A stretch of DNA of 63,927 nucleotides, the filler included, from Barthelona sp. PAP020 (lineage: Eukaryota), in the NCBI GenBank assembly GCA_040182905.1. It is 3 parts of 3 records of this genome, joined end to end, with 100 filler letters (N's around TTAATTAATTAA, not from the genome) between each part and the next. Parts side by side here need not be neighbours in the genome. Positions count along the whole stretch, not along the records: positions 1 to 24,529 come from JARQWU010000153.1; 2 more parts are not named here. One strand, given 5' to 3'. Every line of letters begins with the position of its first letter. The first letter of the stretch is position 1. This document shows, piece by piece, positions 3,890-24,529 of the stretch. The notes beneath the pieces were generated by a model, which was given only the letters and a program-made list of their open reading frames with translations, made no database searches and was not told the origin of the DNA. A program made the translations under genes and the position numbers.

Positions 3890-3987
3890 TTTAAGTATTT
3901 ATCATAATACTGACCTTACAAAATGGTGGATTGAACACCTAGTAAAAAAAAATATACAGTAATTTACAGTATTTTAAAAATGATATC

Positions 3988-6286: not shown

Positions 6287-6333
6287 TGTTTAATATTCAA
6301 TATTTATTGATGAATTTATTAATTTTTTAAGTT

Positions 6334-7086: not shown

Positions 7087-7998
7087 TCGTTCTTTTTGCC
7101 CACCTTCACTCGAAAAGTTTTTAAAGTTTTTTAATTTTGAAATTGGTGCATCGATGAATAAATGAAATATTTTTTGATTTTTATTTAAATTTAGGCAACT
7201 GATGTGGCCAGTAAACTGCCTAAATTCTGCTTCAAAATTGTATTTTCACATCTCAAACAAGATTACTTCTTCATAAGTTTGATAGGTGAAAAAATTTTGT
7301 TGTAAATATCAGATGGTTTTCTTTTGCTATTTCACCTCATAACACATATTTATTCCAAGAAAAATGTTGGGTAATGAAATAAAGATGATATAAAAATGTT
7401 CAATGCTACCTGATTGTGAAGCTTCTTGGCAAATCCCCAATCTTTGTCAGACTCAATGTCAGCAAAATGAGTAAGAGTCGCATGACTTCATTGGAAGTGA
7501 ACAAAGTGATGAAATTGTGATAACTATGATGATTGGTTGGCTAGAAAAAGTCAAAACCATTTGTTTAGGATATTCCGCAATATGACAAAACAATCAAAAA
7601 GTTTTGCTTTATTTATTAATTCACTGATATTCAACATTTTCATTCTTCACCAGTTTGCATATCAAATTCGTATTCCCCTGACCACTTATTTTGTTTGATT
7701 ATTTTATAGCAACAAAAAACAGGCAAATGATTGTTTTAATCAAATAAACTCTTTAAAATGAATTTTGAAAGTCTCAACAAATTTGATGTTCTCAAGTTTG
7801 GTGTTTGACATGCATTTAAAAATTCAATAATGAAAAAGAAAAAAACACAATTTATCAGTTTTATCAACAATACAATCAAAAAATGGATTAAATCCACCAT
7901 TTTTAAAATCATTTGCAACAATTATCAAAATATAAAATGAACAGAATGTGATAAGATGTGCAAGCGATTAAAAAAAAAAAGAATTTGAATTTTAACAA

Positions 7999-10779
7999 TC
8001 ATCTCAATCGAAGTTGCCCAGCTTCAATGAGTTTTTGAATTTTTCCTTGATAGACAGTCGGAATTCTAAATAAGAAGTCCTCATTTATTGAACCCGCCTT
8101 TTCCAGTCTTTGAAAGGCACCATCAGGTTTATTTACTCTAAAATACCATAAAGCAGCAACTAAATGGTCTTCAATATAACTTATAAATGGTACACACTGT
8201 TCATTTCCATGTTTTTCTTGAACCCATTGAACAACCCATTCAGATTTGATGTTCACACCTCTATCTAAGGTATTAATGACATCTGATAAGCTTCCACCAT
8301 CGATTAAACCTCTTAAACGACTGGATTGAAATAAGAGTTTTTGTAAATTTGTTATTTTTTTCACCTTTTCAGCTTCATTTTCTAAAAGCGTTCCGGAAGT
8401 CTTAAATAGAGTATAAACTATCTCACAAGGACTTGCAGTTGGCAAAATCTTTAATTTTTTGCAAATTTCATTCAATTCAAGGATTTTCTCACAATAAGAG
8501 ATATCTTTCGAAGTTAATGATGCTTTTTTCAAAATCTCTTCAGAATCTATGGTTAAATTATGTGAAATGTCATCGTTGACGTTTAAATTCCAAGCAAACT
8601 CCATTGTGATATCAACAGTCTTGGAAGTCAATCCTAACACTATTAATAAACGTTGTAGCCATTGTAAATCATGCAAAGCCAATGTTTCTTCGTCTTCATG
8701 TTGAGCATGAATAGGTATACTTGCTAAGATTGTTTTTTGAATGTAGCTTATCAATGGTGAGAGAGGTGCCTTCTTTAAAATTTGTAATACTTGTTCTTCA
8801 GTTAAAAGATCATGTTTTCTGAATAATGTATGTGCTACTTGAGCAAAAAGATCAGGATGATGTTCATTAGCTGATTCAGCCAGACATTTTCCAAATAAAT
8901 CCAAAAATTCGGGAGAATTATAGTCTAACAAAGATAATTGATGTAATCTCTGTTTAATCTTGAATTCCAAAGATTCCTCTTCATCCAGCAATTTAACACA
9001 AATATCGGTAAATTTTCTCTTTTCAGCAAATTCAGATAATTTGAGGAAAAACTCAGATTTACAAGCAAAAGATTCAGATCTGCTAAGACTGTTTTTGATG
9101 TCCTTAAGATTGGCAATAAACATTGGAATCTGCTCAGTAGTTATGGTCTCACTAGCAAATAATATTTTTTGCTTGCACAACTCTAACAGAATATTGTTTA
9201 AAAGCTCATTCTTTTTCGGGATTTCAAACAATCTCAAAATATGGATCGCATCTCTGAATAATCCACGATTGGTTAACATGTTACAAATATGAGGTATGCG
9301 AACCAATTCTAATTGATCAATAGTAATAGGCAAATGACATTGAAAGCGCAAATGATTTAGAATTCTCAATAATCGTAATGTATCTGTTCTTTCAGGTGTA
9401 AGTGTATCCTTGCAACTTAAAGCTAAATTGGTACCCAGAGTTAACAAAGACTTCTGTCTTTCCACATTCCATTCCTCAACCGCTGCTTCAATAAGTAAAT
9501 CAGCGATTTCATCAATTTTTTCGGCATTTTGGGCTTTCAATTTTGATAATAGCAAACTATCGTTGCCAGCAGAATAGAACATTGAAGCCTCATGCTCACT
9601 CTTTGATCCAAAGACCAATTTTGTTGTGATATCGACAAAACTGAAGAACTGTATACTGTCTAACCCAATAAATCTAACACCATCTGGTTCAGGGATGATA
9701 GATCCCCATGCTTCATTGCTAACCATCCTAGCAAAATATGTGTATGATGTAAAATACGCCTCTTTGGAAAGAATAGGAATAAAAACAATGTGCTCTGTGA
9801 ACCATAAACAGAGAGAAACAGGAGCATTCGGAGGGATACCAAAGAATTCAAATGCGATAAATTCAGAATCAAAATTACCATCTAACAAGCTGTTCATATG
9901 AAAGTATTTTACCAAATTGCAAAGTCCATCGTATATCATCAACTTAGACTTCAAAGATTCACTATTACGTGTTACAACAGCAATAAAATCATTACCGGAA
10001 ATAGTAATATTAGGCTTTTTGCTCCTTTTTATATGAGTGATAAATTCTTGATCTCCACTTAACTCTTCAACAACATGAGTTCGAATGGAACTTTCAGTCA
10101 CCAATAACAATAGAAGCTTATACCGAAATTCGTCAGCATTTATCTTAATAAACTCTTCAGTCAAAATGATACCACCAACGGACTTGCTGATACGGTCAAA
10201 AAATGGCAGTAACTTAATGATTTCCATTGAAAGGGGTAAACTATTTACCATAGAACCTGATATCTCTTCAGAACTTTGGTTATCAATGAAAGTATCCAAC
10301 TTATCAATGAAACATAACTCATAATTCAAATTGATTAATAATAAACCATGCAAAAAGGGATGCGCATATAAAATATGATTATTTGTTAGATTTTTTGGTA
10401 AATTATAAACTTCAGTTGGTCTATTTAATGAAACTAATTCAACTTTATTATGTTCATAGACTATCAAAATAATTTCATTCAATAATAAGCCAAAATTAAC
10501 AATTCTACCAAATTGTGAGTTTGTTTTATGTTTTTTAATCATTGTAGTATCCGCATTTAAAATGTAAAGAAAACCTCCACTGGAATAAGTATGATCACCA
10601 GTATCTGCAATCTTAGGTAATACTAAAAGCGGTCCTGCAAATGATGAAGAAGAAAACGCACAAGTACGCTTGGTTAAATCAATTAATTGAGGATCATCAA
10701 AAGTTGATCTAGTTATTGTTAATTTTCGATATGTTGAACTTCCAACATCAATATATGTATCAATATTCGGAAAATTCAT
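7999..10779 (-). CDS. VPS16: Vacuolar protein sorting 16 (HOPS/CORVET)
   Basis: IIPEPDGVRFI and LRLLRILNHLR..HLPITIDQL..MLTNRGLFRDAIHI match Vps16 signatures; beta-propeller plus alpha-solenoid layout, 926 aa. Confidence 0.8.
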   Translation of the reverse strand: MNFPNIDTYIDVGSSTYRKLTITRSTFDDPQLIDLTKRTCAFSSSSFAGPLLVLPKIADTGDHTYSSGGFLYILNADTTMIKKHKTNSQFGRIVNFGLLLNEIILIVYEHNKVELVSLNRPTEVYNLPKNLTNNHILYAHPFLHGLLLINLNYELCFIDKLDTFIDNQSSEEISGSMVNSLPLSMEIIKLLPFFDRISKSVGGIILTEEFIKINADEFRYKLLLLLVTESSIRTHVVEELSGDQEFITHIKRSKKPNITISGNDFIAVVTRNSESLKSKLMIYDGLCNLVKYFHMNSLLDGNFDSEFIAFEFFGIPPNAPVSLCLWFTEHIVFIPILSKEAYFTSYTYFARMVSNEAWGSIIPEPDGVRFIGLDSIQFFSFVDITTKLVFGSKSEHEASMFYSAGNDSLLLSKLKAQNAEKIDEIADLLIEAAVEEWNVERQKSLLTLGTNLALSCKDTLTPERTDTLRLLRILNHLRFQCHLPITIDQLELVRIPHICNMLTNRGLFRDAIHILRLFEIPKKNELLNNILLELCKQKILFASETITTEQIPMFIANLKDIKNSLSRSESFACKSEFFLKLSEFAEKRKFTDICVKLLDEEESLEFKIKQRLHQLSLLDYNSPEFLDLFGKCLAESANEHHPDLFAQVAHTLFRKHDLLTEEQVLQILKKAPLSPLISYIQKTILASIPIHAQHEDEETLALHDLQWLQRLLIVLGLTSKTVDITMEFAWNLNVNDDISHNLTIDSEEILKKASLTSKDISYCEKILELNEICKKLKILPTASPCEIVYTLFKTSGTLLENEAEKVKKITNLQKLLFQSSRLRGLIDGGSLSDVINTLDRGVNIKSEWVVQWVQEKHGNEQCVPFISYIEDHLVAALWYFRVNKPDGAFQRLEKAGSINEDFLFRIPTVYQGKIQKLIEAGQLRLR

Positions 10780-10992
10780 TTTCTATTACAAATAAAAATG
10801 TTTTTAAAGATTTTATTGTTGTTTTATTTGGACTTTTATCATGTTTATATGTTGTTTATTATGTATATATCTCCCTTTTACATATAACTTTTTTATTAAA
10901 TTCTTTTCATATCCTGGTCAATTTTTTTTTCTCTCTTTCATCATTATTTTCTTAATTTAAATGAATAATCTTGATATTGTATTATATTTTTA

Positions 10993-11360
10993 ATGTTTGT
11001 TGCTGACATATTTTTGGATACAGATTCTAATGACCCCACTTCTGCAACATTTACTTTCTTTGATGAAGACCATACTTTGGGTAATACTTTACGATATATT
11101 TTAATGGCAAAGTAACTCTGATTTATTGCGTGTTTATTCTGATTTTTAGTTCAAAAGTCGAATTTTGCGGTTGTTCCATTCCACATCCTCTTGAAAATAA
11201 AATGAAATTGCGTTTACAAACATATGAAGATGATGCAATTGAAGTGTTAATAGAAGCTGCTGATACAATTATGTGCATTTGTGATAGAGTTGAAGACAAA
11301 TTTGTGGCTGAATTGGAGATACATTTGTTGAATCAGGTCCTATTTGTGAACAATTTGTGA
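10993..11360 (+). CDS. POLR1D: RNA polymerase I/III subunit RPAC2 (AC19); exons 10993-11111 and 11150-11360
   Basis: Spliced product reads ...SATFTFFDEDHTLGNTLRYILMAN|SKVEFCGCSIPHPLENKMKLRLQT; 38-nt GT-AG intron at 11112-11149. Confidence 0.9.
11112..11149 (+). other. Spliceosomal intron (38 nt) in RPAC2
   Basis: GTAACT...TCTGATTTTTAG; removal joins the conserved DHTLGN and PHP motifs in frame. Confidence 0.9.
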
Positions 11361-11563
11361 TATTTTTAATAAATATAGTCTGTTTCCCTTCTTTTTTTGT
11401 CATTTGAGAGAAATTTTTAGTCAAAAAATCTTAGCTTTTAAGACGCAGCTACAGTTTATATATGATAAACATTCTTTTTAAATCTGGGCATTTCATTTAG
11501 AACAAAATAATACAATGAAAGATCAATTTATTCAAATATAACACTGAAATATTTGATTCAAAT

Positions 11564-11932
11564 TCAAATGTCTTCAGAAAGATTTATATTACTATTTTGA
11601 TGGTTCAAATATTTGGGTGTTCCCATATGTAGGATATTCCCAACCGTGAAGCAAGTATCTGTAATTTGTTCAATTGATGAAATTTCATTGGATGATTTAA
11701 CATGGAAATGATTGATAACAACAGGTCGTTCGCTTCTTTCTCTTGCTTTCCGACAAATAACAATACATACAACTAAAAAAATTACAAAAGCTAAAAATAT
11801 TCCTAAAATTATTAATGTGTTTAAAGGTATTATAATCACTTGGTTGTTTGGGGACGGATCTGCATTAGAAATTTTGGTTGAATTATCAAAACAAAGAACG
11901 CATTGAATAAATATTAATATATACAAGAGCAT
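11564..11932 (-). CDS. Small type I membrane protein, unknown function
   Basis: Signal peptide MLLYILIFIQCVLC, one TM helix followed by RKARER. Confidence 0.55.
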   Translation of the reverse strand: MLLYILIFIQCVLCFDNSTKISNADPSPNNQVIIIPLNTLIILGIFLAFVIFLVVCIVICRKARERSERPVVINHFHVKSSNEISSIEQITDTCFTVGNILHMGTPKYLNHQNSNINLSEDI

Positions 11933-12430
11933 AATCACATATTCACATGGAATATTATATTGAGTTTAAATGTGAAGTTTTTTTTTTAAAAAATTAACAT
12001 TAGATTGAAAGCTATTTTTAATCATTTTGTTGTTTACAATATTTCAAGTTTATAATATCATTACAGATATTTTAACATGATTTGGGGTGATCAATCATTT
12101 GTTTCCAAATACATATTTGAAAGGGGGAATGTTACCTTTTTTTTTTTTTTCATTTCTTTCAATTTTCAAAGAAAATAAATTAAAATAAAAAACAATACGT
12201 TAAACTGGGTTAAATTTATTTGAAACATAAACAGAAAAAACTAATAAAAATTAACACTTCATAGTTTTTTCATTTTGGTACAGCAATATTATCAACAAAA
12301 AACTATCATCATGATTTAAATGTTTAAAACATTGCAAATGTTTCATAAAATTGATAATTTTTCAAAATTAAAGGGAGAGCACGTGGTGAAAAGTTCAATT
12401 TTGATTTTCTTGTTCGGAATTCAGGATAGT

Positions 12431-13681
12431 TTATGATCTCTCTGAAATTTCACTTTCCTCTGTGTTTTCGTTGTCAACATCATTAGAAAGGTCTTTAGCA
12501 ACCTCATTATCTTCCACAGTAACAACAACATCATTATCAACTGGCTCAACGATTTCCTCTGTGTTTGAGCTGTTATCAACATCATTAGAAAGGTCTTTAG
12601 CAACCTCATTATCTTCCACAGTAACAACAACATCATTATCAACTGGCTCAACGATTTCCTCTGTATTTTCGTTGTCAACATCATTAGAAAGGTCTTCAGC
12701 AACTTTGGAAAGCACAATTACATTTTTTTCATCACTTGAACTTTTATTGAGTTCTGACCCCACAAGAGACTTATCTTCACTTGTATCAGAATCTGATATT
12801 GTTATTGACAACAAATCAACTTCTAAATCGGAATCTAATAACTCTGTTTTGTCATTTGACACAGCTTCTTTTTTGTTATCTTCAGTTGAAAGCTCACCAG
12901 AGTTTTTATCAACAACAAAATTCTCTAAACTGTTATTTTCATGCAAATTGATTTTGGATTTAGTTAATCTGGAACCAATAAATTCTCCCGTACTTGTAGC
13001 AATCGAATCACTAATCATCAAACTTGGGTTTGAAGTATCCTTTGTTCCAATGATATTAGAAGTCAAGCTAAAGCGTTTGGCATCAAATTTACCATCTGTG
13101 CTTTCAATATCTTCAGCAACATCAGCAGGATCTAACGATTTTGCCAATTTTTCCATCTCTTCAGCCTTCAAATACTCAGATTTAAACGTTAACAATTCCA
13201 AACTCAATGCAATTTTCTTTGAAAGTAACGAAATTGAAACACCCAAAAAAATGTCAATCCAATATAATAAATTGTATGGAAAACCATATCGTATTATTAT
13301 GACTATGGTGTGAAAAACACCAAAAGTAAAAAAAAAGTCGACATGCATAAAAAATCGTGGAATTAAAAATTGATGAGTAAATATTACAAATACAAAAGAT
13401 AGTAAGAATCCAAATGTATTTATATATCCTCTACCATCCAAATAAAAATAATTATAATTAAATAGCTGACACCATGTAAATTTTTCAGAAAAAAAATAAT
13501 CTAAAGTTTGAATAGCTATGAAATAATCTATATACCATACAATTAATGATACAATAAATCTGAATAATAATTTCATCAAAGACAATTGATGATATTGACT
13601 TTTTTTAGTATACATTTCATCAACTATGGTATATAAACTAAATATGATTATTATGGCAACAAATAATATTATTCCCCACAT
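12431..13681 (-). CDS. Multi-pass membrane protein with acidic repetitive C-terminal tail
   Basis: About 5 hydrophobic segments in the first ~170 aa, then a D/E/N/V-rich tail; first in-frame ATG at 13681. Confidence 0.6.
   Translation of the reverse strand: MWGIILFVAIIIIFSLYTIVDEMYTKKSQYHQLSLMKLLFRFIVSLIVWYIDYFIAIQTLDYFFSEKFTWCQLFNYNYFYLDGRGYINTFGFLLSFVFVIFTHQFLIPRFFMHVDFFFTFGVFHTIVIIIRYGFPYNLLYWIDIFLGVSISLLSKKIALSLELLTFKSEYLKAEEMEKLAKSLDPADVAEDIESTDGKFDAKRFSLTSNIIGTKDTSNPSLMISDSIATSTGEFIGSRLTKSKINLHENNSLENFVVDKNSGELSTEDNKKEAVSNDKTELLDSDLEVDLLSITISDSDTSEDKSLVGSELNKSSSDEKNVIVLSKVAEDLSNDVDNENTEEIVEPVDNDVVVTVEDNEVAKDLSNDVDNSSNTEEIVEPVDNDVVVTVEDNEVAKDLSNDVDNENTEESEISERS
12455..12705. repeat. Intragenic tandem repeat, ~99/102-bp unit, ~2.4 copies
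   Basis: Near-identical units encoding DLSNDVDN(E/SS)NTEEIVEPVDNDVVVTVEDNEVAK. Confidence 0.9.
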
Positions 13682-14060
13682 TAAAATAAACACACAATTG
13701 ATAGGATATTGGAAAAATTAATGGTTTGATAAGGGTTGAGATTTTTCTCTTCCTGATTTTTACGTTTTTAATTTTATAACTATTAATATTTAGGGTATAT
13801 TTTGAAATAAAACATTATTCTCAACAATTTTTCCTAAATTTAAAGTTGGTTTTTTTTCAATTTTTTCTGTTGTTTTACAAGCAAACTAGCTTTTGAAACA
13901 GTTAAAGGTATCCTTTTTTTTTTTTTTTTTTTAAAAGATCAAAGAAAAGATGAACAATGGTAAAGAATAAATTTGCAATCAAAAATCCTCAAGAAAAAGG
14001 TGGAACAAAAAAAAAAGGAATTTTTAATTTATCAACAAATGTAAAAAAATGAAATTCAAA

Positions 14061-16100
14061 TCAGTTTTCTTTCATGACTTGAACGGCACAGAATTTCAAT
14101 TCTGGAATTTTGGCAATTGGATCACAAACATCGTTGGTAAGTTTGTTTGCAGCGGCTTCTGCATAATGGAATGGAATAAAGATATCACCTTGTCTGACTC
14201 TTTTGAAAGCGCATTTGGCAACTATTTCTCCTCTTTTGGAAACTATCTTTACCATATCTCCTTCATTGATTCCTCTGACCTTTGCATCTTTTTCATTCAT
14301 CTCAACAATACATTCTGGAGCCAATTTGTTGAGCTTGGTACAACGACGAGTCATACTACCACTGTGATAATGTTGCAATTGTCTTCCAGTCATCAACACT
14401 AAAGGATAATCACTGTTAGGTAATTCTGCAGGTAAAGTATACTCACAAGGAGCAAATATTGCCAAACCATCAGGTTTGTTAAACCAATTTCTGTGTAAAA
14501 TAGGTGTTCCGGGATGATACTTGTCAGTACAGGGTGTATGAATACCATCAAGATTATCAATTCTGTCTAATGAAATGCCTCCATAAGAAGGTGTCATTTT
14601 AGCCATTTCATCAGTGATTTCAGATACATCCTTGTAATTCATAAGATATCCCATGGCGGTAGAAATTTTGCAAATTATTTCATAATCCGGAAGGGCTAAT
14701 CCAGGCGCATTTCTAACTTTTCTAATTCTTTGAACTCTTCTCTCTGTGTTTGTAACAGAACCATCCTCTTCAGCCAAAGCAGCAGCGGGCAAAACAACAT
14801 CTGCCAATTGAGCGGTTTCAGTAAGGAAAATATCAGAAACAACCAAGAAATCTAAATGTCCAAGAGCTTCAACAACATGATTAGCATTTGGATCTGTTAC
14901 AACAGGATTTTCTCCCATGATAAACATTCCTTTAAAATTACTTTCATGTGCAGCATTCATCATTTCACCAATTGAATAACCAATAGTGTTTGAAAGCTCA
15001 ACACCCCATTCTTTTTCAAAACGTTCTTGTGTTTCCTTATCTTCAACAGAGAAATAACTGGGGTAAACGTTAGGTAATGCACCTAAATCACAGGCTCCTT
15101 GTACATTGTTTTGACCACGAAGAGGATTAACACCCGCACCAGGTCTACCAATTTGTCCACATAGAAGTGCAAGATTGGCAATAGATCTAACATTAGCAAC
15201 ACCATGAGTATGTTGAGTTACACCCATAGTGTATACAATAGTTGCATTTTTAGCTTGAGCATACCAAAGTGCAACTTCACGAATAGCTTCAACAGACACA
15301 TCACAGATTTCAGCAGACTTTGCAACAGAAGTGTTGTTGATAATAGGCAATATTAAATCAAAATCTTTGGTCTTTGTTTCAATGAATTTCTTGTTATGAA
15401 GATTTTCTTCAATAATGATTTTCATAATGGCATTCAATAAGGGAATATCAGTACCAGGACGAATTTGAAGATGTCTATCTGCTTTCTTTGTTAAATCAAC
15501 AGCACGAGGATCAATAACAACTAATTTTGCTCCATTCTTAACAGCTCTGTTAATGGACAAAGCTGCCACAGGATGAGCTTCAGTGGTATTAGAACCAATG
15601 ACAAGAATCATATCAGATTCTTCCATATCAGCAAAAGTATTTGTCATTTGACCTGCGCCAAATGAAGCTCGAAGACCAGCAACAGTTGATGCATGACAAA
15701 GTCTGGCACAATGATCAACGTTATTGGTACCAAAGACAGCACGAATGAATTTTTGGAAAATATAATTGTCTTCATTGGAAGTACGAGCAGAGGATAAACC
15801 ACCCAAAGCATTGGAACCATATTGTTCTTTGATTTCTTTGAACTTCTTGGAAACTAATTCAATAGCTTCTTCCCAAGTTGCTTGTCTGAATGAACCGTCA
15901 GATCTACGAACAAGAGGACTTGTTAAACGATCATGATCTTCAAGGAAATCCATACCACTCATTCCTTTGATGCAAAGACTTCCTTTGTTAACAGCTGCGC
16001 ATTTAGCACCTTTTACTTTAACAATATGATCATGTTTCATTTGGAATTCAATGTTACAACCTACGCCACAATAGGGGCAAACAGAAGTAACAACACGGTC
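14061..16100 (-). other. Domain: formate dehydrogenase alpha/FdhF-like catalytic subunit (approximate N-terminal bound)
   Basis: CPYCGVGC...LCIKG [4Fe-4S] motif, SARTSNE, NNVDHCARLCH (metal-ligand Cys codon TGT at 15696-15698), GSNTTEAHP, MGVTQH, LRGQNNVQG, TNTERRVQ, TGRQLQHYHSG, NKLT...PELK. Confidence 0.93.
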
Positions 16101-19100
16101 TACATCTTCAATATCAACAGAAGTTTTCGGGATCTTCTTTGAAATTTCAGCCTTTTCAACCTTTTTGGTCTTTTTCTCAGTGGATTTAGCCTTTGGTTCT
16201 GTGTTTGAAGCAGAAACTTTGCCAACAAAACCATTAAATGTTCCTTCAATACCATCATCAGCTGCTTCATTGCATTTTACTAATGGTGCAAACATAACAA
16301 CATTCTTAGAAACCAATTTGTCATGAATAGAGATGGCTGCCTGACAGAAAAGATCATAATCAGATGAACCAAGTCCACAAATTGCACATTGAGCCTTAAC
16401 ATTAACACTATCCAATGCGTTGAAGAAACTTTCAGCATCAGCGGGGAATTCACCATCACCAACGGTTGATGTAACCATGATGACTTTATCATTAGTTTCT
16501 AATTCTTTAGCAGTTTCAGCATTCATTGGTTTAATTGGGACATTGAGTTTCTTTGCGATTGTATTGGCTAAACCTTCAGCATTGCCACTATCAGAACCAA
16601 ATAATACAATCATATTTGTTTCAGCAATTTTTTCAGTATTTTCAACTTTCTTTTCCTCAACTTTTTCAACTTTCTTTTTCTCAACTTTTTCAACTTTTAC
16701 CTCTTCAACTTTCTTTTCAACAGGTGCACCTAAATGTGCATCATGGAATTCTTTCATTTGACTAATTCTCCAATTCTTCAATTCAAGATCTTTTTCAAGC
16801 ATAGATTGAAGTGCTTCTGCACGTTCGGGATGAGATTTCATCAAAGTACGGAAACGATTTTCATTGAGAAGGAAATCACGTACAGATCCTTTAGGTGGTT
16901 TAGAATCAATGGATAATGGATTCTTTCCCTTAGCAATATTTGCAGGATTGTAACGATACAATGGCCAATATCCACATTCAACAGCTAATTGAGCTTGTGA
17001 ATAAGTTTGACCATTCACATTGTTAATACCGTGATTGATACAAGGTGAATATGCAAGAATAATGGAAGGACCATCATATTCTTCTGCTTCTTTAATAGCT
17101 TTCAATGCTTGAGCAGGATTAGCATTTACAGCAATAGAAGCAACATAAACACTACCAATACCCATAGCTAATAAACCAAGATCTTTTTTGGCTTGTCCTT
17201 TACCAGCAGCTGCAAATCTTGCAACAGCAGAACGAGGAGAAGATTTGGAAACTTGTCCACCTGTATTGGAATAAACTTCAGTATCTAAAACAAAAATATT
17301 ACAATTGATACCCATATTAAGGACATGATCGAGACCACCATAACCAATATCATAGGCCCAACCATCACCTCCCATTGTCCAAGCAACAGGGCGAATGAAA
17401 AGATGCTTAAGAGTATAAATTGATTTTTCAAGATCTGATCCTTCACCAACAAAGAAATTGTTGAGTTTATCACATAATTCCCTCGAAGGATCGCTTGTGT
17501 TGAGCCATTCTTCAAGTAAAGGTTTGACATTAGAATCAGCTTCGGGAAGATACAACTTGACAAAATATTGCAATCTTTCGCGCATTTTTTCCAAACCTAC
17601 CTTAACACCAAGACCAAATTCAGCAGTATCTTCAAATAATGTTCCCAAGAAAGCAGGTCCTCTTCCATTAGAATCCTTAGCCCAAGCAGAGGCTGGATAA
17701 GTACCACCCCAGACAAGAGAACAACCACAAGAATCAGATAAATACAATCTATCTCCCCATAATTGAGTAACCATTTTAATATGGGCAGTTTCACCACAAC
17801 CAGCGCAAGCGGCAGAATATTGAAGATATGGTTTTTGCATCATAGCATTCTTGACACCCTTATCATTGAATAACTTTCCAGCCTTTTCATCAAGAGCATT
17901 CTCTTCAATAATCTTCCATGTTTCAATTTGATCAATGGACTTACCACCCATTGTCAAAGCATCCTTTGGACATGCTGAAGCACAAACATGACAACCAAGA
18001 CAATCAAGAGGAGAAATTTGAATTGAGAATTCATGGCCTTTATTCTTTCCTTTCATTTCAATTCCATGAATATTGAATTCATTTTCAGATTCAACAACAA
18101 TTGGTCTGATCGAAGCATGAGGACATACTGCAACACATTCATTACATTGAATACATTTGTTAGAATCCCATGAAGGAACTTTTAAAGCAACACCACGCTT
18201 TTCATATTGAGAAGTACCAATTGGAACTAAACCACCAATGGCGGGAACAAATTTCGAAACTGGAATAGTGTGTCCTTTTTGATGCATATGAGGTAAAACA
18301 ACATTTTTAAACCACTCAGGTGCATCAGGATAAAGTTCAGGACGAACAAGAGGTAAAGTTTCAAGATCAGACCAAGAAAGGGGATAATCAATGGCTGTGA
18401 GGTGAGAAAGAGCTTGATCAACAGCAGCAATATTCTTGTTAACAACAGCATCACCCTTTTTTCCATAAGTACGTTTGATACCATCCTTCAATAAATTAAT
18501 GGCATGATCAATTTCAATAACTTCAGAAAGCTTGAAAAAAACTGTTTGCATAACCATATTGATTCTACCAGTTAAACCAACATTTTCAGCAATATTAGTG
18601 GCATGAATTGTGTACAATTTGATCTTCTTGTCAGCAATATCCTTTCTTAAACGTGCTGGGATATTCTTATCACAAGCTTCAATTGTTTGCCAATCACAAT
18701 TTATAACAAAGGCCGCACCTTCCTTGGCATTTGCAAGCAAATCATACATTTGAACATATGCTGCATTGTGACATGCAACATAATCAGCATTATTCACATG
18801 ATATGCTGACTTGATTTCAGTAGGTCCAAATCTCAAATGTGAAGTGGTAAATCCACCCGATTTCTTCGCATCATATTGGAAATATCCTTGACAATAGTAA
18901 TCAGTATTATCACCAATAATTTTAACAGCTTCCTTATTTGCTCCAACTGTACCATCAGCACCCAAAGCATAGAATAAACATTGTTTAGTGGTTTCTTCCA
19001 TTGTGTTAATTTCTTTATCAACGACAAGATTGCTAAATGTAAGATCATCATTCAAACCAACTGTGAAGAAATCACGTTTTTCGGTTTCAAAACCATTCTT

Positions 19101-22100
19101 AAATACAGATAAAGCATGAGAAGGAGTGTATTCCTTACCACCAATACCATAAATACCACAAAGAACTTCAATTTCAGGACGATTTTTAAACAAAGATTCA
19201 GAAACGGAAAGATAAAGAGGAGGCATAGAATTGTATTCAAGTGTTTTATCAAGAACTGTAACACACTTAACTGTGGAAGGCAAAGCAGAAAGAAGATGCT
19301 TGGTTGAGAAGGGTCTGAATAAACGTACTTTAATCAAACCTACCTTTTGACCTTGATTATTCAAGTACTTGACAGTTTCTTCAGTAGCATTAGCACAGGA
19401 AGACATCATAACAATGACATGTTCAGCATCCTTTGCACCAACATAATCAAAGAGATGATATTGACGACCAATAAGATTGGCAAAACGATTCATGCAGTCT
19501 TCAACAGCTTCAGGAACAGCTAAGAAATGTTCTTCGGCAGTTTGTTCAAATTGCCAGAAAGTATCTGCATTTTCAACACCTCCACGTGCGGTAGGTTTAT
19601 AATTATTCATAACACCACCACTGGATCTATATTTAGTCAATGCTTCAAAATTGTATAAAGATTTCATTTCTTCAGTAGTTAAGACATCAATCTTTGAAAC
19701 TTCATGAGAAACACGCATACCATCAAAGAAATGAACAATAGGAACACGAGTTTCAATTGTAGCAAGATGTGAAATGACAGCAAGATCATGAGCTTCTTGA
19801 ACTGAATTGGAAGATAACATCGACCATCCAGTTTGACGAATACTCATAACATCTGTATGATCACAGAAAATATTCATAGCTTGACCAGCAATAACACGAG
19901 AAGCAACATGGAAAACGCAAGGTTGCAATTCAGATGACATCTTGTACATATTTGGAACCATGAGTAACAATCCTTGAGAACAAGTATACGTTGAAGTAAG
20001 AGATCCGGTAACACTGGCACCATGAAGAGCACCTGAAACACCACCTTCAGATTGCATTTGTGTGGAAGGAACAGTACGTCCAAAAATGTTTAATCTTTGA
20101 TCAGAACCCCACTTGTCTGCATATTCACACATTGGTGAGGAAGGTGTGATAGGATAAAGGAAAGACATATCAGAATAAGCATAACCAGCAGTAATAGCTG
20201 CAGTATTTCCATCCATAGTCATCCAATTGGGTTGACGAGGTTTAACCAAATCAACAACAGGTTTAATGCTTCTCAAAACAAAATCAGCCTTGATTTCAGG
20301 TTGACTTCCTTTTGCCATTTCAGTAAGTCTTTCACCAACTTCTAACATTTGTTGAAGAGAAAGATGCTTATGATTAACATCATCTTCAAGGGCTTTTTGT
20401 AATTCTTCAGCTCTTTCAGGATGAGTTCTCAAAAGAGAAGAGAAACGTACTTCATTTTCAAGTAATTCTCTTAAAGGTTTCTTTGCAGGCTTATGATCAA
20501 TTTGAAGAGGATTCTTACCGGCAGCAACACGACGAGGATCATAACGGTAAAGTGGCCAATAACCAGTTTCAACAGCCAACGCTCCTTCAAAAACAGCAGA
20601 AGCAAGTCCCTTCTTAATACCATGATTAATACAAGGACAGTAAGCAAGAATAATAGAAGGACCATCATATTCTTCTGCTTCTTTGATAGCTTTTAATGCT
20701 TGAGTTCTGTTGGCACCAATGGAAATTGAAGCAACATAAACACCACCAATATTCATAGCATGAAGACCAAGATCTTTTTTGCGTTGATTTTTACCTAAAG
20801 CGGCAAATCTAGCTACAGCAGCACGAGGAGAAGCCTTAGAAACTTGTCCACCTGTATTAGAATAAACTTCAGTATCCATAACAAAAATGTTAGCATTCAA
20901 ACCCATATTAAGAACTTGGTCAAGACCACCAAATCCAATATCATAGGCCCAACCATCACCACCAATAATCCATGGAACTGGACGAACAAAAAGATGATAG
21001 TTATCCTTAATGGTTTGAAGTAAAAGTGAAGATTCAAGAGGTTCAATCAATTCATTAATTGAATCGGCAAGTTCTTGGGGAACAGTAACATCTTCATCAT
21101 ATAAAGCGATCCATTTCTTCAAAAGACCTTTCAAATCATCAGAAATGTTGGTTTCCAATAAAGCTTCAACATCATGTCTGAGATGAACCCTACGATTCTT
21201 TAAACCAATAGTCATTCCCAAACCAAATTCAGCAGCATCTTCAAACAAAGTACCCGCGAAGGAAGGTCCATGACCACGTTCATTTTGAGCCCATGCTGAG
21301 ACAGGATACATACCTCCCCAAACAAGAGAACAACCACAAGCATCAGCAATGTACAATTTTTCTTGGAAAAGTTGTGTGATTAATTTAACATGTGCAGTTT
21401 CCATACATCCAGCACATGCACCAGAAAATTCTAAGAAAGGTGTATGATATTGAACATCTTTCATGCTCTTGGAATCAAAAGAATCTCCATGTTTCTTTAC
21501 ATGAGTTGAATATTCGTGATTAAGAACATCACCTGCTGCTTCATCCAAAGGAACCATGGACAAGGCACCTTTCTTACAAACAGTAGAACAAACAGAACAA
21601 CCCATACAATCCAATGGAGAAACCTGGATTCTGTAAGATAACTCATCAGGATTTTTACCTTTAACTTTAACAGTTTCAAAAGTAGAAGGTGCAGTTTTCA
21701 ATTCTTCAGGATCTACTAAAGAAGGTCTAATAGCTGCATGAGAACAAACAGCGGTACAATCGTTACATTGAATACATTTAGCTGAATCCCAAATAGGAAC
21801 TTTTAATGCAACTCCTCTCTTTTCAAAACAAGTTGTACCAGTAGGGATAGCTCCTCCTTTTGCTTGAACAAATTTAGAAACAGGCAATAAATCACCCATT
21901 TGTCTTCCAACTGGAGCAACAATCTCTTTAAACCATTCAGAAGCATCTTTAGGTGGTTGATATTCATCAACAGCATCCAAAAGAGCCCAACTTTCAGGAT
22001 AAGCAATTTCAATGGTTGCTGCCAAAGCTTGATCAATAGCTTCAATATTTGAATCAACAACGGCTTGTCCTTTCTTTGAAAAAGTCTTAACGACAGCATT

Positions 22101-23861
22101 CTTCAACAATTCAACAGCTTGATCAACAGGTAAAACATTTGCCATACTAAAGAAAGCTGTTTGCATCACCATATTAATTCTACCAGTCAAACCAACACGA
22201 TCAGCAATAGCAAAAGCGTCGATTACAACAAACTTCAATTTTCTTACTGCAATGATTTTCTTCATTGTTGAGGGTAATTTCTTTTCTAATTCCTTTAAAT
22301 CCTTCCAGGAACAATTCAAAACAAAAGTAGCTCCTTGTTTAGCAGTACATAACATATCAAATTGAGTGATATAAGCAGGATTATGACAAGCAATATAATC
22401 AGCATCTCTAACACTATATTCAGCATGAATTTCTTCAGGACCAAATCTTAAATGTGAAACAGTGAAACCACCGGATTTCTTTGCATCATATTGGAAATAG
22501 CCCTGACAAAAATTATCAGAATTGTCACCAATAATTTTAATAGCACTCTTATTGGCAGAAACAGTACCATCAGCACCTAAAGCATAGAATAAACATTGTT
22601 TTACATCATCAGAAAGTGCATTTAAATGTTCGGTAACTTCAAGATGAGAATTTAAGAGATCATCAATAATTCCAATATTAAAGTCGTTCTTTGGAATATC
22701 TCTTTTCATATTTTCAAAAACTGCTAAAGCATCACTAGGAATAAATTCCTTTCCACCAATACCATATCTACCAGTGAAAACCTTAATATTAAGTTGTTTT
22801 CTACGACAAGCAGCAACGACATCAAGATATAAAGGTTCACCATTTGAACCTACCTCATGAGTCTTATCTAAAACAGTGATCATGTTAACTGAAGAAGGTA
22901 AAGCTTCAACAAAAAGATCAACAGAAAAAGGACGGAACAAACGGACCTTTAATAAACCAACTTTTTCTCCTCTTTGTACCAAGACCTTAACAACATCTTC
23001 AACAGCAGAAACACCTGATCCCATTAAAATAACAACTCTTTCTGCATCTGGGGCACCAACATAATCAAAAGCATGGTATCTACGACCAGTTAATTTGAAA
23101 AATTGATCCATAGTTTCTTCAACAATTTGAGGAACTTTATCAAAATAAGGTTGGGCAGCATGAACAAATTGCCAAAAAATATCAGGTCCTTCAACACCAC
23201 CTCTTTCATTGGGTTTATCAGCATTAACAATTGCACGATTGCGGAATTCGTTCAATTTTTCAAAAGGATACATTGATGAAATGTCTTCATTCGTCAAAAT
23301 ATCAATCTTATTGACCTCATGAGAAAGACGGAAACCATCAAAGAAGTGTAAAAATGGAACAGATGCTTTCACAGTAGCTAAATGAGAAATTGCACCAAAA
23401 TCATGAGCTTCTTGGACAGATGTAGATGATAACATAGACCAACCGGTTTGACGAACAGCCATTACATCGGAATGGTCACAAAATATATTCATAGCTTGAC
23501 CAGCAATAACTCTTGATGCAACATGGAAAACGCAAGGTTGCAATTCTCCAGCAATTTTATACATTTCAGGTAACATCAATAATAAACCTTGAGAACATGT
23601 GTATGTGGAAGTTAAAGCTCCAGTGACTGTGGCTCCATGAAGTGCACCAGAAACACCACCTTCAGATTGCATTTGAATGCAATCAACAACCTCTCCAAAA
23701 ATATTTTTTCTATTTTGGCCAGCCCATGTATCTGCCATCTCACACATTGGTGAAGATGGAGTAATTGGATAAAGGAAAGCTAAATCAGAACATGCATAAC
23801 CTGCTTGAATAGCTGCGGTATTTCCATCAACAGAATGATAATTTGGCTTACGATCTTGCAT
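14061..23861 (-). CDS. Fusion protein PFO-PFO-flavodoxin-formate dehydrogenase (Mo/W-bis-PGD), 3266 aa
   Basis: One uninterrupted ORF from ATG 23861 (MQDRKPNYHSVDGN...) containing two full PFO units, a flavodoxin and an FdhF-like catalytic subunit; see domain features. Confidence 0.92.
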   Translation of the reverse strand: MQDRKPNYHSVDGNTAAIQAGYACSDLAFLYPITPSSPMCEMADTWAGQNRKNIFGEVVDCIQMQSEGGVSGALHGATVTGALTSTYTCSQGLLLMLPEMYKIAGELQPCVFHVASRVIAGQAMNIFCDHSDVMAVRQTGWSMLSSTSVQEAHDFGAISHLATVKASVPFLHFFDGFRLSHEVNKIDILTNEDISSMYPFEKLNEFRNRAIVNADKPNERGGVEGPDIFWQFVHAAQPYFDKVPQIVEETMDQFFKLTGRRYHAFDYVGAPDAERVVILMGSGVSAVEDVVKVLVQRGEKVGLLKVRLFRPFSVDLFVEALPSSVNMITVLDKTHEVGSNGEPLYLDVVAACRRKQLNIKVFTGRYGIGGKEFIPSDALAVFENMKRDIPKNDFNIGIIDDLLNSHLEVTEHLNALSDDVKQCLFYALGADGTVSANKSAIKIIGDNSDNFCQGYFQYDAKKSGGFTVSHLRFGPEEIHAEYSVRDADYIACHNPAYITQFDMLCTAKQGATFVLNCSWKDLKELEKKLPSTMKKIIAVRKLKFVVIDAFAIADRVGLTGRINMVMQTAFFSMANVLPVDQAVELLKNAVVKTFSKKGQAVVDSNIEAIDQALAATIEIAYPESWALLDAVDEYQPPKDASEWFKEIVAPVGRQMGDLLPVSKFVQAKGGAIPTGTTCFEKRGVALKVPIWDSAKCIQCNDCTAVCSHAAIRPSLVDPEELKTAPSTFETVKVKGKNPDELSYRIQVSPLDCMGCSVCSTVCKKGALSMVPLDEAAGDVLNHEYSTHVKKHGDSFDSKSMKDVQYHTPFLEFSGACAGCMETAHVKLITQLFQEKLYIADACGCSLVWGGMYPVSAWAQNERGHGPSFAGTLFEDAAEFGLGMTIGLKNRRVHLRHDVEALLETNISDDLKGLLKKWIALYDEDVTVPQELADSINELIEPLESSLLLQTIKDNYHLFVRPVPWIIGGDGWAYDIGFGGLDQVLNMGLNANIFVMDTEVYSNTGGQVSKASPRAAVARFAALGKNQRKKDLGLHAMNIGGVYVASISIGANRTQALKAIKEAEEYDGPSIILAYCPCINHGIKKGLASAVFEGALAVETGYWPLYRYDPRRVAAGKNPLQIDHKPAKKPLRELLENEVRFSSLLRTHPERAEELQKALEDDVNHKHLSLQQMLEVGERLTEMAKGSQPEIKADFVLRSIKPVVDLVKPRQPNWMTMDGNTAAITAGYAYSDMSFLYPITPSSPMCEYADKWGSDQRLNIFGRTVPSTQMQSEGGVSGALHGASVTGSLTSTYTCSQGLLLMVPNMYKMSSELQPCVFHVASRVIAGQAMNIFCDHTDVMSIRQTGWSMLSSNSVQEAHDLAVISHLATIETRVPIVHFFDGMRVSHEVSKIDVLTTEEMKSLYNFEALTKYRSSGGVMNNYKPTARGGVENADTFWQFEQTAEEHFLAVPEAVEDCMNRFANLIGRQYHLFDYVGAKDAEHVIVMMSSCANATEETVKYLNNQGQKVGLIKVRLFRPFSTKHLLSALPSTVKCVTVLDKTLEYNSMPPLYLSVSESLFKNRPEIEVLCGIYGIGGKEYTPSHALSVFKNGFETEKRDFFTVGLNDDLTFSNLVVDKEINTMEETTKQCLFYALGADGTVGANKEAVKIIGDNTDYYCQGYFQYDAKKSGGFTTSHLRFGPTEIKSAYHVNNADYVACHNAAYVQMYDLLANAKEGAAFVINCDWQTIEACDKNIPARLRKDIADKKIKLYTIHATNIAENVGLTGRINMVMQTVFFKLSEVIEIDHAINLLKDGIKRTYGKKGDAVVNKNIAAVDQALSHLTAIDYPLSWSDLETLPLVRPELYPDAPEWFKNVVLPHMHQKGHTIPVSKFVPAIGGLVPIGTSQYEKRGVALKVPSWDSNKCIQCNECVAVCPHASIRPIVVESENEFNIHGIEMKGKNKGHEFSIQISPLDCLGCHVCASACPKDALTMGGKSIDQIETWKIIEENALDEKAGKLFNDKGVKNAMMQKPYLQYSAACAGCGETAHIKMVTQLWGDRLYLSDSCGCSLVWGGTYPASAWAKDSNGRGPAFLGTLFEDTAEFGLGVKVGLEKMRERLQYFVKLYLPEADSNVKPLLEEWLNTSDPSRELCDKLNNFFVGEGSDLEKSIYTLKHLFIRPVAWTMGGDGWAYDIGYGGLDHVLNMGINCNIFVLDTEVYSNTGGQVSKSSPRSAVARFAAAGKGQAKKDLGLLAMGIGSVYVASIAVNANPAQALKAIKEAEEYDGPSIILAYSPCINHGINNVNGQTYSQAQLAVECGYWPLYRYNPANIAKGKNPLSIDSKPPKGSVRDFLLNENRFRTLMKSHPERAEALQSMLEKDLELKNWRISQMKEFHDAHLGAPVEKKVEEVKVEKVEKKKVEKVEEKKVENTEKIAETNMIVLFGSDSGNAEGLANTIAKKLNVPIKPMNAETAKELETNDKVIMVTSTVGDGEFPADAESFFNALDSVNVKAQCAICGLGSSDYDLFCQAAISIHDKLVSKNVVMFAPLVKCNEAADDGIEGTFNGFVGKVSASNTEPKAKSTEKKTKKVEKAEISKKIPKTSVDIEDVDRVVTSVCPYCGVGCNIEFQMKHDHIVKVKGAKCAAVNKGSLCIKGMSGMDFLEDHDRLTSPLVRRSDGSFRQATWEEAIELVSKKFKEIKEQYGSNALGGLSSARTSNEDNYIFQKFIRAVFGTNNVDHCARLCHASTVAGLRASFGAGQMTNTFADMEESDMILVIGSNTTEAHPVAALSINRAVKNGAKLVVIDPRAVDLTKKADRHLQIRPGTDIPLLNAIMKIIIEENLHNKKFIETKTKDFDLILPIINNTSVAKSAEICDVSVEAIREVALWYAQAKNATIVYTMGVTQHTHGVANVRSIANLALLCGQIGRPGAGVNPLRGQNNVQGACDLGALPNVYPSYFSVEDKETQERFEKEWGVELSNTIGYSIGEMMNAAHESNFKGMFIMGENPVVTDPNANHVVEALGHLDFLVVSDIFLTETAQLADVVLPAAALAEEDGSVTNTERRVQRIRKVRNAPGLALPDYEIICKISTAMGYLMNYKDVSEITDEMAKMTPSYGGISLDRIDNLDGIHTPCTDKYHPGTPILHRNWFNKPDGLAIFAPCEYTLPAELPNSDYPLVLMTGRQLQHYHSGSMTRRCTKLNKLAPECIVEMNEKDAKVRGINEGDMVKIVSKRGEIVAKCAFKRVRQGDIFIPFHYAEAAANKLTNDVCDPIAKIPELKFCAVQVMKEN
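16218..16613 (-). other. Domain: flavodoxin (FMN-binding, CPR/PNO-type; approximate bounds)
   Basis: LFGSDSGNAEGLA phosphate loop, VTSTVGDGEFPADA, GLGSSDYDLFC. Confidence 0.9.
16755..20240 (-). other. Domain: pyruvate:ferredoxin oxidoreductase unit 2 (approximate bounds)
   Basis: YPITP, MQSEGG, GADGTVG, CIQCNEC...CP / CLGCHVC...CP, ACAGC, CGCS, GGDGWAYDIG, DTEVYSNTGGQ, PCINHG. Confidence 0.95.
20345..23861 (-). other. Domain: pyruvate:ferredoxin oxidoreductase unit 1 (approximate bounds)
   Basis: YPITP, MQSEGG, GADGTV, CIQCNDC...C / CMGCSVC...C 2[4Fe-4S] domain, ACAGC, CGCS, GGDGWAYDIG, DTEVYSNTGGQ, PCINHG. Confidence 0.95.
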
Positions 23862-24529
23862 TTGTAAATTGAAACACAACGTAAAAATTTAACAATGAAA
23901 ATGGAAAATGAAGTTTTGAAAATCCTGCAGGTGTGAAAGACTTCTCGAGAAGAATTTTTTTTCAAAGTTCTGAATAATTAATCAACCTCAATTGTTGCAC
24001 ACGAAACGGTTATTGATGTCAAAAATACTTTAAATTTATCGAAATTTTTGGATTTATGAAAAGGTTATTTCATACTTCCAAATGTAATTATTTTTACAAT
24101 GTTTTATTGCCACGTAATACAATTTTGAATATTTTATTGGTTATTTCACTTTAGAAAAAAATTATTTTGTATTTTCTATTCCTTTAAAATTTGTTTTGGA
24201 AAATGAGCCTTATTATTTTATTTTATTCATTTTGCAATTCAAATCAGGAAACAAAATTTGAAAAAATTTTGAATTGAGTGAAAATTCACCCCTTGTTTCC
24301 TGTACCAAAGAACTTTTTTTTTTGCTTTTGTTTTTTCAAGTAAATGAGTAATCTTTTATGAGACATATGATTTTTGTAATATTTTCCTTCGTATTGCAAT
24401 CAACAAAAGTTTTTCAAATGACTAGTCTTCTTTTCATAAATGTGTGGATTCTATATGTTAATTTCTTATTTATAAATTGTTGTTTTTTGTTTACCCACAT
24501 TTTACAACCTTTTTTTTTTTTTTTTTTTT

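What the first reader, a model, noticed from the sequence alone, without database searches (positions are those of the whole stretch)
14061..23861. Giant PFO-PFO-flavodoxin-formate dehydrogenase fusion: candidate single-chain pyruvate-to-acetyl-CoA-plus-formate enzyme in a eukaryote
Seen: one 3266-aa ORF ordered PFO1 / ~35-aa linker / PFO2 / KVE-rich linker / flavodoxin / K-rich linker / FdhF-like FDH, with cofactor motifs intact. These predict 2 TPP, 7 [4Fe-4S], 1 FMN and 1 Mo/W-bis-PGD. It shares a contig with Vps16, STE24 and an intron-containing RPAC2, and its codon style looks uniform across domains. Known: PFO yields acetyl-CoA, CO2 and 2 low-potential electrons (about -500 mV). Mo/W FDHs reversibly reduce CO2 to formate (about -420 mV). 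The familiar eukaryotic PFO fusion, PNO, ends in an FAD/NADPH domain rather than FDH. Inference: electrons, and perhaps CO2, pass from PFO via flavodoxin to FDH. The net reaction equals pyruvate formate-lyase without a glycyl radical, activase or hydrogenase, giving a built-in electron sink that would excrete formate (possibly to syntrophic partners). Formate-driven pyruvate synthesis is the alternative direction. No presequence precedes PFO1, so it is probably cytosolic. I know of no described protein with this architecture, but I could not search.
Basis: partly seen in the sequence, partly recalled or inferred. Interest (0 to 1): 0.97.

Follow-up and report, generated by a model that had tools for sequence, protein, structure and literature searches.

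The report
Protist pyruvate-to-formate giant fusion enzyme
An oxygen-avoiding single-celled eukaryote has one giant gene joining two pyruvate-splitting enzymes, an electron carrier and a bacterial-type formate dehydrogenase; the layout is already listed in a paper's supplementary tables but untested, and it likely dumps electrons from pyruvate onto carbon dioxide to make formate, which would need a molybdenum/tungsten cofactor form described as prokaryote-only.

Summary
The 3266-aa ORF is real: PFO, PFO, flavodoxin, FdhF-type formate dehydrogenase (FDH), with all cluster and metal ligands intact. It is not an assembly chimera: a colinear 3240-aa orthologue exists in Barthelona sp. PCE, 54% identical end to end. 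It is not undescribed either: Williams et al. 2024 list it as 'PFO-FdhF fusion' in Supplementary Data 1 and 2, but the main text never mentions the FDH and I found no test of it. New here: the PFO halves are of the host lineage, while the FDH nests among prokaryotic enzymes and has flavodoxin where they have an Fe-S relay. In the authors' table for PCE the fusion is the most expressed PFO (704 FPKM) while pyruvate formate-lyase is 0. Both orthologues carry a eukaryotic Fe-S-delivery motif just before the FDH (0 of 165 homologues do). The PFO pocket is altered. Best reading: pyruvate to acetyl-CoA plus formate through CO2 reduction (0.55). Direction, substrate and supply of the Mo/W-bis-PGD cofactor are untested.

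The parts
14061..23861 (-). whole ORF, 3266 aa, PFO-PFO-flavodoxin-FDH
   Evidence: full-length orthologue P0002
20346..23861 (-). PFO half 1 (residues 1-1172): TPP, three [4Fe-4S]
   Evidence: TIGR02176 1542 bits, cut-off 911; motifs and alignments to 6cin/1b0p
20226..20345 (-). linker 1, about 40 aa
16737..20225 (-). PFO half 2 (residues 1213-2375): TPP, three [4Fe-4S]
   Evidence: TIGR02176 1471 bits; motifs
16617..16736 (-). K/V/E-rich linker 2, about 30 aa shorter in the orthologue
16227..16616 (-). short-chain flavodoxin domain (residues 2416-2545)
   Evidence: PF00258 E 1.6e-18; best PDB match 6gaq flavodoxin E 2.5e-13; 38% identical to the orthologue
16098..16226 (-). K-rich linker 3
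16101..16115 (-). DIEDV pentapeptide (residues 2583-2587), matching the CIA targeting complex client motif
   Evidence: motif from PMC12910081; identical in P0002, 0 of 165 homologues
14061..16097 (-). FdhF-type formate dehydrogenase catalytic domain (residues 2589-3266), Cys form, one [4Fe-4S]
   Evidence: TIGR01591 857 bits, cut-off 666; model pLDDT above 90, Foldseek 7vw6 and 1fdi at rmsd 1.5-1.6

Best explanation
This is a real, conserved barthelonid fusion gene whose product likely works in the cytosol as a self-contained pyruvate-oxidising, CO2-reducing enzyme: the two PFO halves would pair within one chain, the tethered flavodoxin would carry their electrons one at a time to the formate dehydrogenase, and that domain would reduce CO2 to formate. 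Net: pyruvate + CoA to acetyl-CoA + formate, the result of pyruvate formate-lyase without a glycyl radical. Shown: domain order, intact ligands, conservation in two species, separate origins of PFO and FDH. Taken from the authors' table: high expression of the orthologue with PFL at zero. Inferred: intramolecular PFO dimer, electron path, direction, pyruvate as the substrate, cofactor loading. CO2 probably moves by free diffusion, since the linkers are long, charged and differ in length between species.
For: Orthologue colinear, 54% identical over 3287 columns. FDH is as conserved between species (57%) as the PFO halves (56-57%) and keeps 120 of 123 near-invariant columns, equal to the median of 90 homologues. 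114 of the 120 closest FDHs are 870-945 aa, nearly all listed with an N-terminal NuoG-type Fe-S relay; here that relay is absent and flavodoxin stands in its place, so the FDH cluster's nearest carrier is the PFO-linked flavodoxin. Barthelonids also have PFO+flavodoxin+flavorubredoxin and skoliomonads PFO+flavodoxin: a PFO-flavodoxin platform with exchangeable end acceptors. Authors' FPKM in PCE: fusion 704, other PFOs 476 and 45, PFL 0, top-100 cut-off 794; the four skoliomonad PFL rows I saw are 1201-3532 and no such fusion is listed for skoliomonads. With recalled potentials the reaction is about -13.5 kJ/mol. DIEDV motif and no presequence fit cytosolic maturation.
Against: No activity data exist. 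No bis-MGD/FdhD machinery has been shown for barthelonids: 'molybd' has 0 hits in the genome paper's text and readable supplements and no genome was available to search. A hydrogenase is expressed at 856 FPKM in PCE and PFL and its activase are encoded in both barthelonids, so other sinks and a possible formate source exist; PFL 0 is one condition, one species, and its gene-model cell is 7802 nt for a 745-aa protein, so the value may be a mapping artefact. The driving force is small and reversible. Three of five DaPFOR methyl-pocket residues are changed. The nearest FDHs often sit beside NuoE-like genes (27 of 80 loci), a setting compatible with formate oxidation.
Confidence: 0.55

Rival explanations
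1. Shared-flavodoxin electron source: both PFO and FDH work oxidatively (pyruvate and formate oxidation) and load the flavodoxin, which hands electrons to outside partners such as the HydA-flavodoxin-CysJ hydrogenase. Formate-driven pyruvate synthesis is the less likely sub-case.
For: HydA g1780 at 856 FPKM in PCE; PFL and PFLA genes present in both barthelonids; closest FDHs are NuoG-type, with NuoE-like neighbours in 27 of 80 loci; flavodoxin is on long flexible linkers.
Against: PFL, the obvious internal formate source, is at 0 FPKM in PCE while the fusion is at 704. Two donors sharing one single-electron carrier would compete, giving little reason to keep them fused (inference). Pyruvate synthesis from formate is uphill by about 13.5 kJ/mol on recalled potentials.
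Confidence: 0.22
2. Same electron path, but the PFO halves prefer or also take another 2-oxoacid (for example 2-oxobutyrate), making it a 2-oxoacid-to-acyl-CoA-plus-formate enzyme.
For: DaPFOR's pocket is Leu121, Ala219, Ile843, Asn996, Met1202 (PMC5020499 passage). All four fusion halves have Met, Val, Val at the first three; none of 118 other PFO hits showed this where the pattern could be read (109, 102 and 102 of 118 readable). New Cys at 89, 128 and 842 are shared by the four halves.
Against: The changes are conservative and roughly volume-neutral; Thr31, Glu64, Arg114 and Asn996 equivalents are kept; both halves pass the pyruvate:ferredoxin equivalog cut-off.
Confidence: 0.13
3. The FDH domain is not loaded with cofactor in vivo; the protein acts as a PFO-flavodoxin with an inert or repurposed tail.
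For: No Moco, MobA or FdhD genes are reported for barthelonids; diplomonads, their fornicate relatives, lost Mo use (PMC6147048 passage); the DMSO reductase family is called prokaryote-only (abstract starts).
Against: 120 and 118 of 123 near-invariant FDH columns kept; metal-ligand Cys, His, Arg and Lys kept in both species; FDH as conserved as PFO; Pelomyxa has FdhF with an FdhD fusion, so eukaryotic use has a precedent in sequence.
Confidence: 0.08
4. Assembly chimera or bacterial contamination.
For: A scaffold gap lies 670 bp upstream of the start; no reads could be laid on the gene.
Against: Colinear orthologue on a 2.1-Mb contig of another species; eukaryotic neighbours on the same gap-free stretch; uniform codon use; PFO halves group with skoliomonad PFOs at 100/100; the two FDHs form one clade, support 1.0, among 92 sequences.
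Confidence: 0.02

Closest known systems
'PFO-FdhF fusion protein' g1634 and PAP153g00100 of Barthelona spp. (Williams et al. 2024, PMC11316075, Supplementary Data 1 and 2)
   Same: Same architecture, written out as PFO + PFO + Flavodoxin + Formate dehydrogenase; the printed first 400 residues of one row match this ORF and those of the other match P0002.
   Different: Only a table entry: no mention of the FDH in the main text, no function, direction, cofactor supply or phylogeny given in the parts I could read. The main supplementary PDF was unreadable.
Pyruvate:NADP+ oxidoreductase (PNO) of Euglena and Cryptosporidium (architecture recalled); PFO+flavodoxin+flavorubredoxin of barthelonids
   Same: PFO joined through a flavodoxin domain to a terminal acceptor module.
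   Different: The terminal module is a Mo/W-bis-PGD FDH, not an FAD/NADPH domain or a flavodiiron protein; PFO is doubled in tandem.
Homodimeric PFOR of Moorella thermoacetica (6cin) and Desulfovibrio africanus (1b0p)
   Same: Domain order, carboxylate-binding and TPP residues, all 12 cluster Cys per half.
   Different: Two non-identical halves (57%) in one chain; methyl pocket Met/Val/Val; extra Cys; no domain VII.
Cytoplasmic FdhF/FdhA: T. kivui HDCR FdhF (7qv7), methanogen FdhA (9t1s, 7bkb), M. extorquens W-FDH1 (7vw6), E. coli FDH-H (1aa6)
   Same: Fold (rmsd about 1.5), [4Fe-4S] ligands, Lys, Cys/Sec-His, Arg.
   Different: Wired to PFO through flavodoxin rather than to hydrogenase, F420 or NAD modules; eukaryotic host; preceded by a CIA-type motif.
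Pyruvate formate-lyase
   Same: Same predicted net reaction.
   Different: No homology; redox route through free CO2 instead of radical C-C cleavage, so formate carbon should exchange with bulk CO2.
FdhF and NifU-FdhD of Pelomyxa schiedti and Mastigella (PMC8887013, PMC10711303)
   Same: FdhF-type gene in an anaerobic eukaryote, untested.
   Different: Not reported as fused to PFO; an FdhD is known there and not in barthelonids.

Membership tests
Homodimeric pyruvate:ferredoxin/flavodoxin oxidoreductase (TIGR02176) | Score above the equivalog cut-off | tested here: met
   1542 and 1471 bits against 911
Homodimeric pyruvate:ferredoxin/flavodoxin oxidoreductase (TIGR02176) | TPP motif, Thr31/Glu64/Arg114/Asn996 equivalents, three [4Fe-4S] per half | tested here: met
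Homodimeric pyruvate:ferredoxin/flavodoxin oxidoreductase (TIGR02176) | Pyruvate-specific methyl pocket as in DaPFOR | tested here: inconclusive
   Leu121, Ala219, Ile843 are Met, Val, Val; Asn kept; effect on specificity unknown
Homodimeric pyruvate:ferredoxin/flavodoxin oxidoreductase (TIGR02176) | Two halves pair to build shared active sites | not testable with these tools
   2375 residues exceed the folding limits
FdhF/Fdh-alpha Mo/W formate dehydrogenase (TIGR01591) | Score above cut-off and below the nitrate reductase cut-offs | tested here: met
   857 against 666; NasC 556 against 1100; NapA 365 against 904
FdhF/Fdh-alpha Mo/W formate dehydrogenase (TIGR01591) | [4Fe-4S] Cys x4, Lys, metal-ligand Cys/Sec followed by His, active-site Arg, four-domain fold | tested here: met
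FdhF/Fdh-alpha Mo/W formate dehydrogenase (TIGR01591) | Host supplies sulfurated Mo/W-bis-PGD (MoaA-E, MoeA, MobA, FdhD) | not testable with these tools
   No genome held; no such gene among the 27 window ORFs scanned; not covered in the readable paper files
Pyruvate:NADP+ oxidoreductase (PNO) | C-terminal FAD and NADPH binding domains after flavodoxin | tested here: not met
   No FAD/NAD-binding Pfam among 20 families; FDH instead
Pyruvate formate-lyase | Glycyl-radical domain | tested here: not met
   No PFL or Gly_radical family; works like PFL at most
HDCR / formate hydrogenlyase | Hydrogenase module coupled to FdhF | tested here: not met
   No hydrogenase domain in the chain
CIA targeting complex clients (Pentapeptide type, PMC12910081) | D-[IVLM]-E-[DEN]-(not charged or large polar) motif | tested here: met
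   DIEDV in both orthologues, 12 and 11 residues before the first FDH cluster Cys; 0 of 165 homologues; shuffle probability 0.007 and 0.012
CIA targeting complex clients (Pentapeptide type, PMC12910081) | Binding to CIA1-CIA2 | not tested
   CIA1 and CIA2 are reported in all BaSk taxa; the motif paper warns that the motif alone is insufficient

The most novel reading that the evidence does not exclude
Barthelonids have replaced pyruvate formate-lyase with a single-chain, radical-free pyruvate:CO2 oxidoreductase. It would be the first CO2-reducing Mo/W-bis-PGD enzyme shown in a eukaryote, built by bolting a laterally acquired FDH onto the host's PFO-flavodoxin platform and tagging it for the eukaryotic cytosolic Fe-S machinery. 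The protist must then either make bis-PGD with a pathway not yet found in eukaryotes or take the cofactor from its bacterial prey.
Probability: 0.45. Interest if true: 0.85.

Novelty: new variant of a known kind. Interest (0 to 1): 0.62.

Why it matters
If it works as proposed, a eukaryote uses CO2 as its fermentative electron sink with an enzyme family that reviews call prokaryote-only, which adds a third route beside PFO/hydrogenase and PFL to the anaerobic metabolism of protists and forces the question of how a eukaryote gets bis-PGD. A natural single chain coupling PFO to FDH is also a ready model for reversible formate plus acetyl-CoA to pyruvate chemistry without an oxygen-labile glycyl radical. 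The score is held down because the architecture is already catalogued, each module is of a known kind, FdhF is already known from Pelomyxa, and the function is untested.

Tried and rejected
RNA reads: no RNA holder listed, so junctions were not checked with reads. Metagenome scan for a lineage-specific PFO motif: 0 matches. Genome-contig scan with the FDH domain: 1 distant locus from 47 candidates. Prokaryotic precedent: 0 of 80 FDH loci had a PFO or flavodoxin match; only 35 of 80 held 12 kb or more and the flavodoxin probe is divergent, so this is a weak test. None of the best 150 of 32,923 representative hits had a best stretch covering the flavodoxin part, and the barthelonid proteins themselves were not listed there. 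Flavodoxin models were poor: pLDDT below 50 over residues 56-171 in the two-domain model and mean 46.8 alone, so no docking geometry was obtained. The flavodoxin-FDH complex job never ran because the queue was full: no verdict. The Atlas gave no answer. A second match to the CIA motif (residue 2745) lies inside the FDH fold and has a counterpart in a methanogen FDH, so I disregard it. Independent duplication of PFO in each species was considered: within-species shared sites outnumber half-specific ones 65 to 23 (16 crossed) and the PCE halves pair at 100/100, but both second halves share indels and motifs, so an old duplication with later homogenisation is my reading; not resolved. Donor of the FDH: not identified, sister support 0.80 and mostly unnamed sequences. 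Paper searches that found no description of the fusion's function: (0 papers); others (0 papers; 0 passages) gave nothing.

Full report
Observation. The window holds one minus-strand ORF of 3266 aa from the ATG at 23861 to the stop at 14061, with no N inside. Pfam gives the order PFO, PFO, flavodoxin, molybdopterin oxidoreductase. Each module passes its curated cut-off: PFO halves 1542 and 1471 bits against 911 (TIGR02176), FDH 857 against 666 (TIGR01591), with nitrate reductase models far below theirs. Both PFO halves keep the TPP motif, the Thr31/Glu64/Arg114/Asn996 equivalents and 12 cluster cysteines; the FDH keeps four cluster Cys, Lys2632, Cys2722-His2723 and Arg2915. An AlphaFold model of the FDH part has pLDDT above 90 and matches M. 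extorquens FDH1 and E. coli FDH-H at rmsd 1.5-1.6; the flavodoxin part did not model well and rests on sequence.

Not an artefact. Neighbours on the same gap-free stretch (1..24529) include Vps16, a CAAX protease, doublecortin and an RPAC2-like gene with a 38-nt intron. Codon usage correlates at 0.92-0.96 between domains. A search of long proteins with the C-terminal 917 residues returned 3 of 6190 candidates: this protein, an unrelated GltD-FDH fusion (P0003), and P0002 from Barthelona sp. PCE, 3240 aa, colinear and 54% identical over 3287 columns. No sequencing run was listed, so junctions were not checked with reads.

Already catalogued, not studied. In Williams et al. [quoted passage not shown] The printed first 400 residues of one row match this ORF, so the host is a barthelonid metamonad. 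The main text mentions formate only in connection with PFL and says merely that some PFOs carry extra ferredoxin or flavodoxin domains; 'molybd' has 0 hits in the text and the readable files. The main supplementary PDF and one scanned file could not be read and may bear on this. The earlier transcriptome paper (PMC7542792, passages) has no 'formate'. No paper in the library holds both 'Barthelona' and 'formate dehydrogenase'; searches showed no study of such a fusion in their listings. FdhF and a NifU-FdhD fusion are reported from Pelomyxa and Mastigella (PMC8887013, PMC10711303, passages), so FdhF in an anaerobic eukaryote has a precedent in sequence.

How it was built. The best two hits of PFO half 2 are skoliomonad PFOs; the four fusion halves form a clade (99/99) sister to them (100/100) in a 12-row tree (same grouping in a 30-row tree). 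The two FDH domains form one clade (1.0) among 92 sequences, nested in otherwise mostly unnamed homologues whose named members are prokaryotic; the donor is unresolved. The closest FDHs are 50-54% identical; 114 of 120 are 870-945 aa and nearly all are listed with an N-terminal NuoG-type Fe-S relay. The fusion lacks that relay and has flavodoxin there. None of 80 FDH loci had PFO or flavodoxin nearby (weak, 35 of 80 held 12 kb or more). The supplement lists PFO+flavodoxin in all three skoliomonads and PFO+flavodoxin+flavorubredoxin in both barthelonids. My reading (inference): a host PFO-flavodoxin platform gained a laterally acquired FDH as one of its end acceptors, and the tandem PFO lets the obligate dimer (recalled) form within one chain. 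The halves share more sites within species (65) than by position (23; 16 crossed), which suggests homogenisation after an old duplication, but independent duplications are not excluded.

A eukaryotic tag. The one conserved word in the otherwise divergent linker before the FDH is DIEDV, identical in both species, 12 and 11 residues before the first cluster Cys. It fits the client motif of the cytosolic Fe-S targeting complex, D-[IVLM]-E-[DEN]-(not charged or large polar), of Ren et al. 2026 (PMC12910081; abstract, passages, Discussion). Of 270 FDH homologues, 165 had enough upstream sequence and a readable cluster motif; 0 of 165 have the motif within 30 residues upstream; shuffling the linkers gives it with probability 0.007 and 0.012. 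The control is imperfect because in most homologues that stretch belongs to a folded domain, and the paper warns that the motif alone is not enough. CIA1 and CIA2 are reported in all these taxa, and 3 of the 4 flavodoxin-PFL-activase sequences printed show the motif in the matching linker (read by eye). This fits cytosolic maturation of a working enzyme.

Direction. The authors' values for PCE are 704 FPKM for the fusion, 476 and 45 for the other PFOs, 856 for the main hydrogenase, 0 for PFL and 32 for its activase; the top-100 cut-off is 794. In skoliomonads, for which no fusion is listed, PFL genes are among the top 100 (four rows seen, 1201-3532). This reciprocal pattern suggests the fusion does PFL's job, but it is one species and one condition, and the zero may be a gene-model artefact. 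With recalled potentials (-500 and -430 mV) pyruvate to formate is about -13.5 kJ/mol, small and reversible. I put 0.55 on pyruvate to acetyl-CoA plus formate, 0.22 on both ends feeding flavodoxin for outside acceptors, 0.13 on another 2-oxoacid, 0.08 on an unloaded FDH and 0.02 on artefact. Nothing here supports CO2 channelling or syntrophy.

Results against a simple reading. The DaPFOR methyl pocket is Leu121, Ala219, Ile843, Asn996 and Met1202 (PMC5020499, passages). All four fusion halves have Met, Val and Val at the first three, and new Cys at 89, 128 and 842; among 118 other PFO hits none showed these where readable (109, 102 and 102 of 118). Pyruvate is therefore inferred, not shown. 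The larger gap is the cofactor: abstracts call the DMSO reductase family prokaryote-only (PMC4633490 and PMC10609526, abstract starts in the listing), diplomonads lost Mo use (PMC6147048, passages), and I could not search for MoaA, MobA or FdhD because no genome is held. Against decay, the FDH keeps 120 of 123 near-invariant columns (orthologue 118; median of 90 homologues 120) and is as conserved between species as the PFO halves.

Verdict. Real and conserved; architecture already annotated in supplementary tables but undiscussed and untested in what I could read. It works like PNO in layout and probably like PFL in net chemistry, and belongs to neither family. New variant of a known kind, interest 0.62; 0.85 if CO2 reduction and cofactor loading are shown.

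Noticed in passing
P0003 residues 856-1286: A GltD-FDH fusion from an unnamed metagenome contig has a 431-aa intein-like insert (Cys start, Asn end, faint LAGLIDADG hit) just before the CARLCH metal-ligand motif.
   Followed up: partly
window 24530-24629 and 49145-49244: Scaffold joins written as 44 N, a TTAATTAATTAA all-frame stop linker, 44 N; the window is at least three contigs.
   Followed up: yes
window 57822-60389 (+): Membrane protein with a C-terminal sulfatase domain, resembling bacterial LTA-synthase/phosphoglycerol transferase layouts (resemblance recalled); its codon use is unlike the fusion's. Possible lateral transfer.
   Followed up: no
window 1597-2553 (+): D-2-hydroxyacid dehydrogenase (SerA-like, label recalled) with codon use very close to the fusion's (0.87-0.96), suggesting high expression.
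   Followed up: no
window 61376-62761 (+) and 40176-40865 (+): Sodium/bile-acid symporter family transporter with an acidic tail, and a DUF6962 membrane protein; both may be prokaryote-derived.
   Followed up: no
window 49193-49765 (-) and 56183-57559 (+): Two related membrane-protein ORFs in inverted orientation sharing a near-identical stretch; the first runs into a scaffold gap.
   Followed up: no
PMC11316075 Supplementary Data 1: BaSk PFL-activating enzymes appear to carry an N-terminal flavodoxin-like domain, and 3 of 4 printed sequences have the CIA client motif in the linker, the same arrangement as in the fusion.
   Followed up: partly
window 12431-13693 (-): Membrane protein with a C-terminal acidic tandem repeat and no Pfam match, directly downstream of the fusion.
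   Followed up: no
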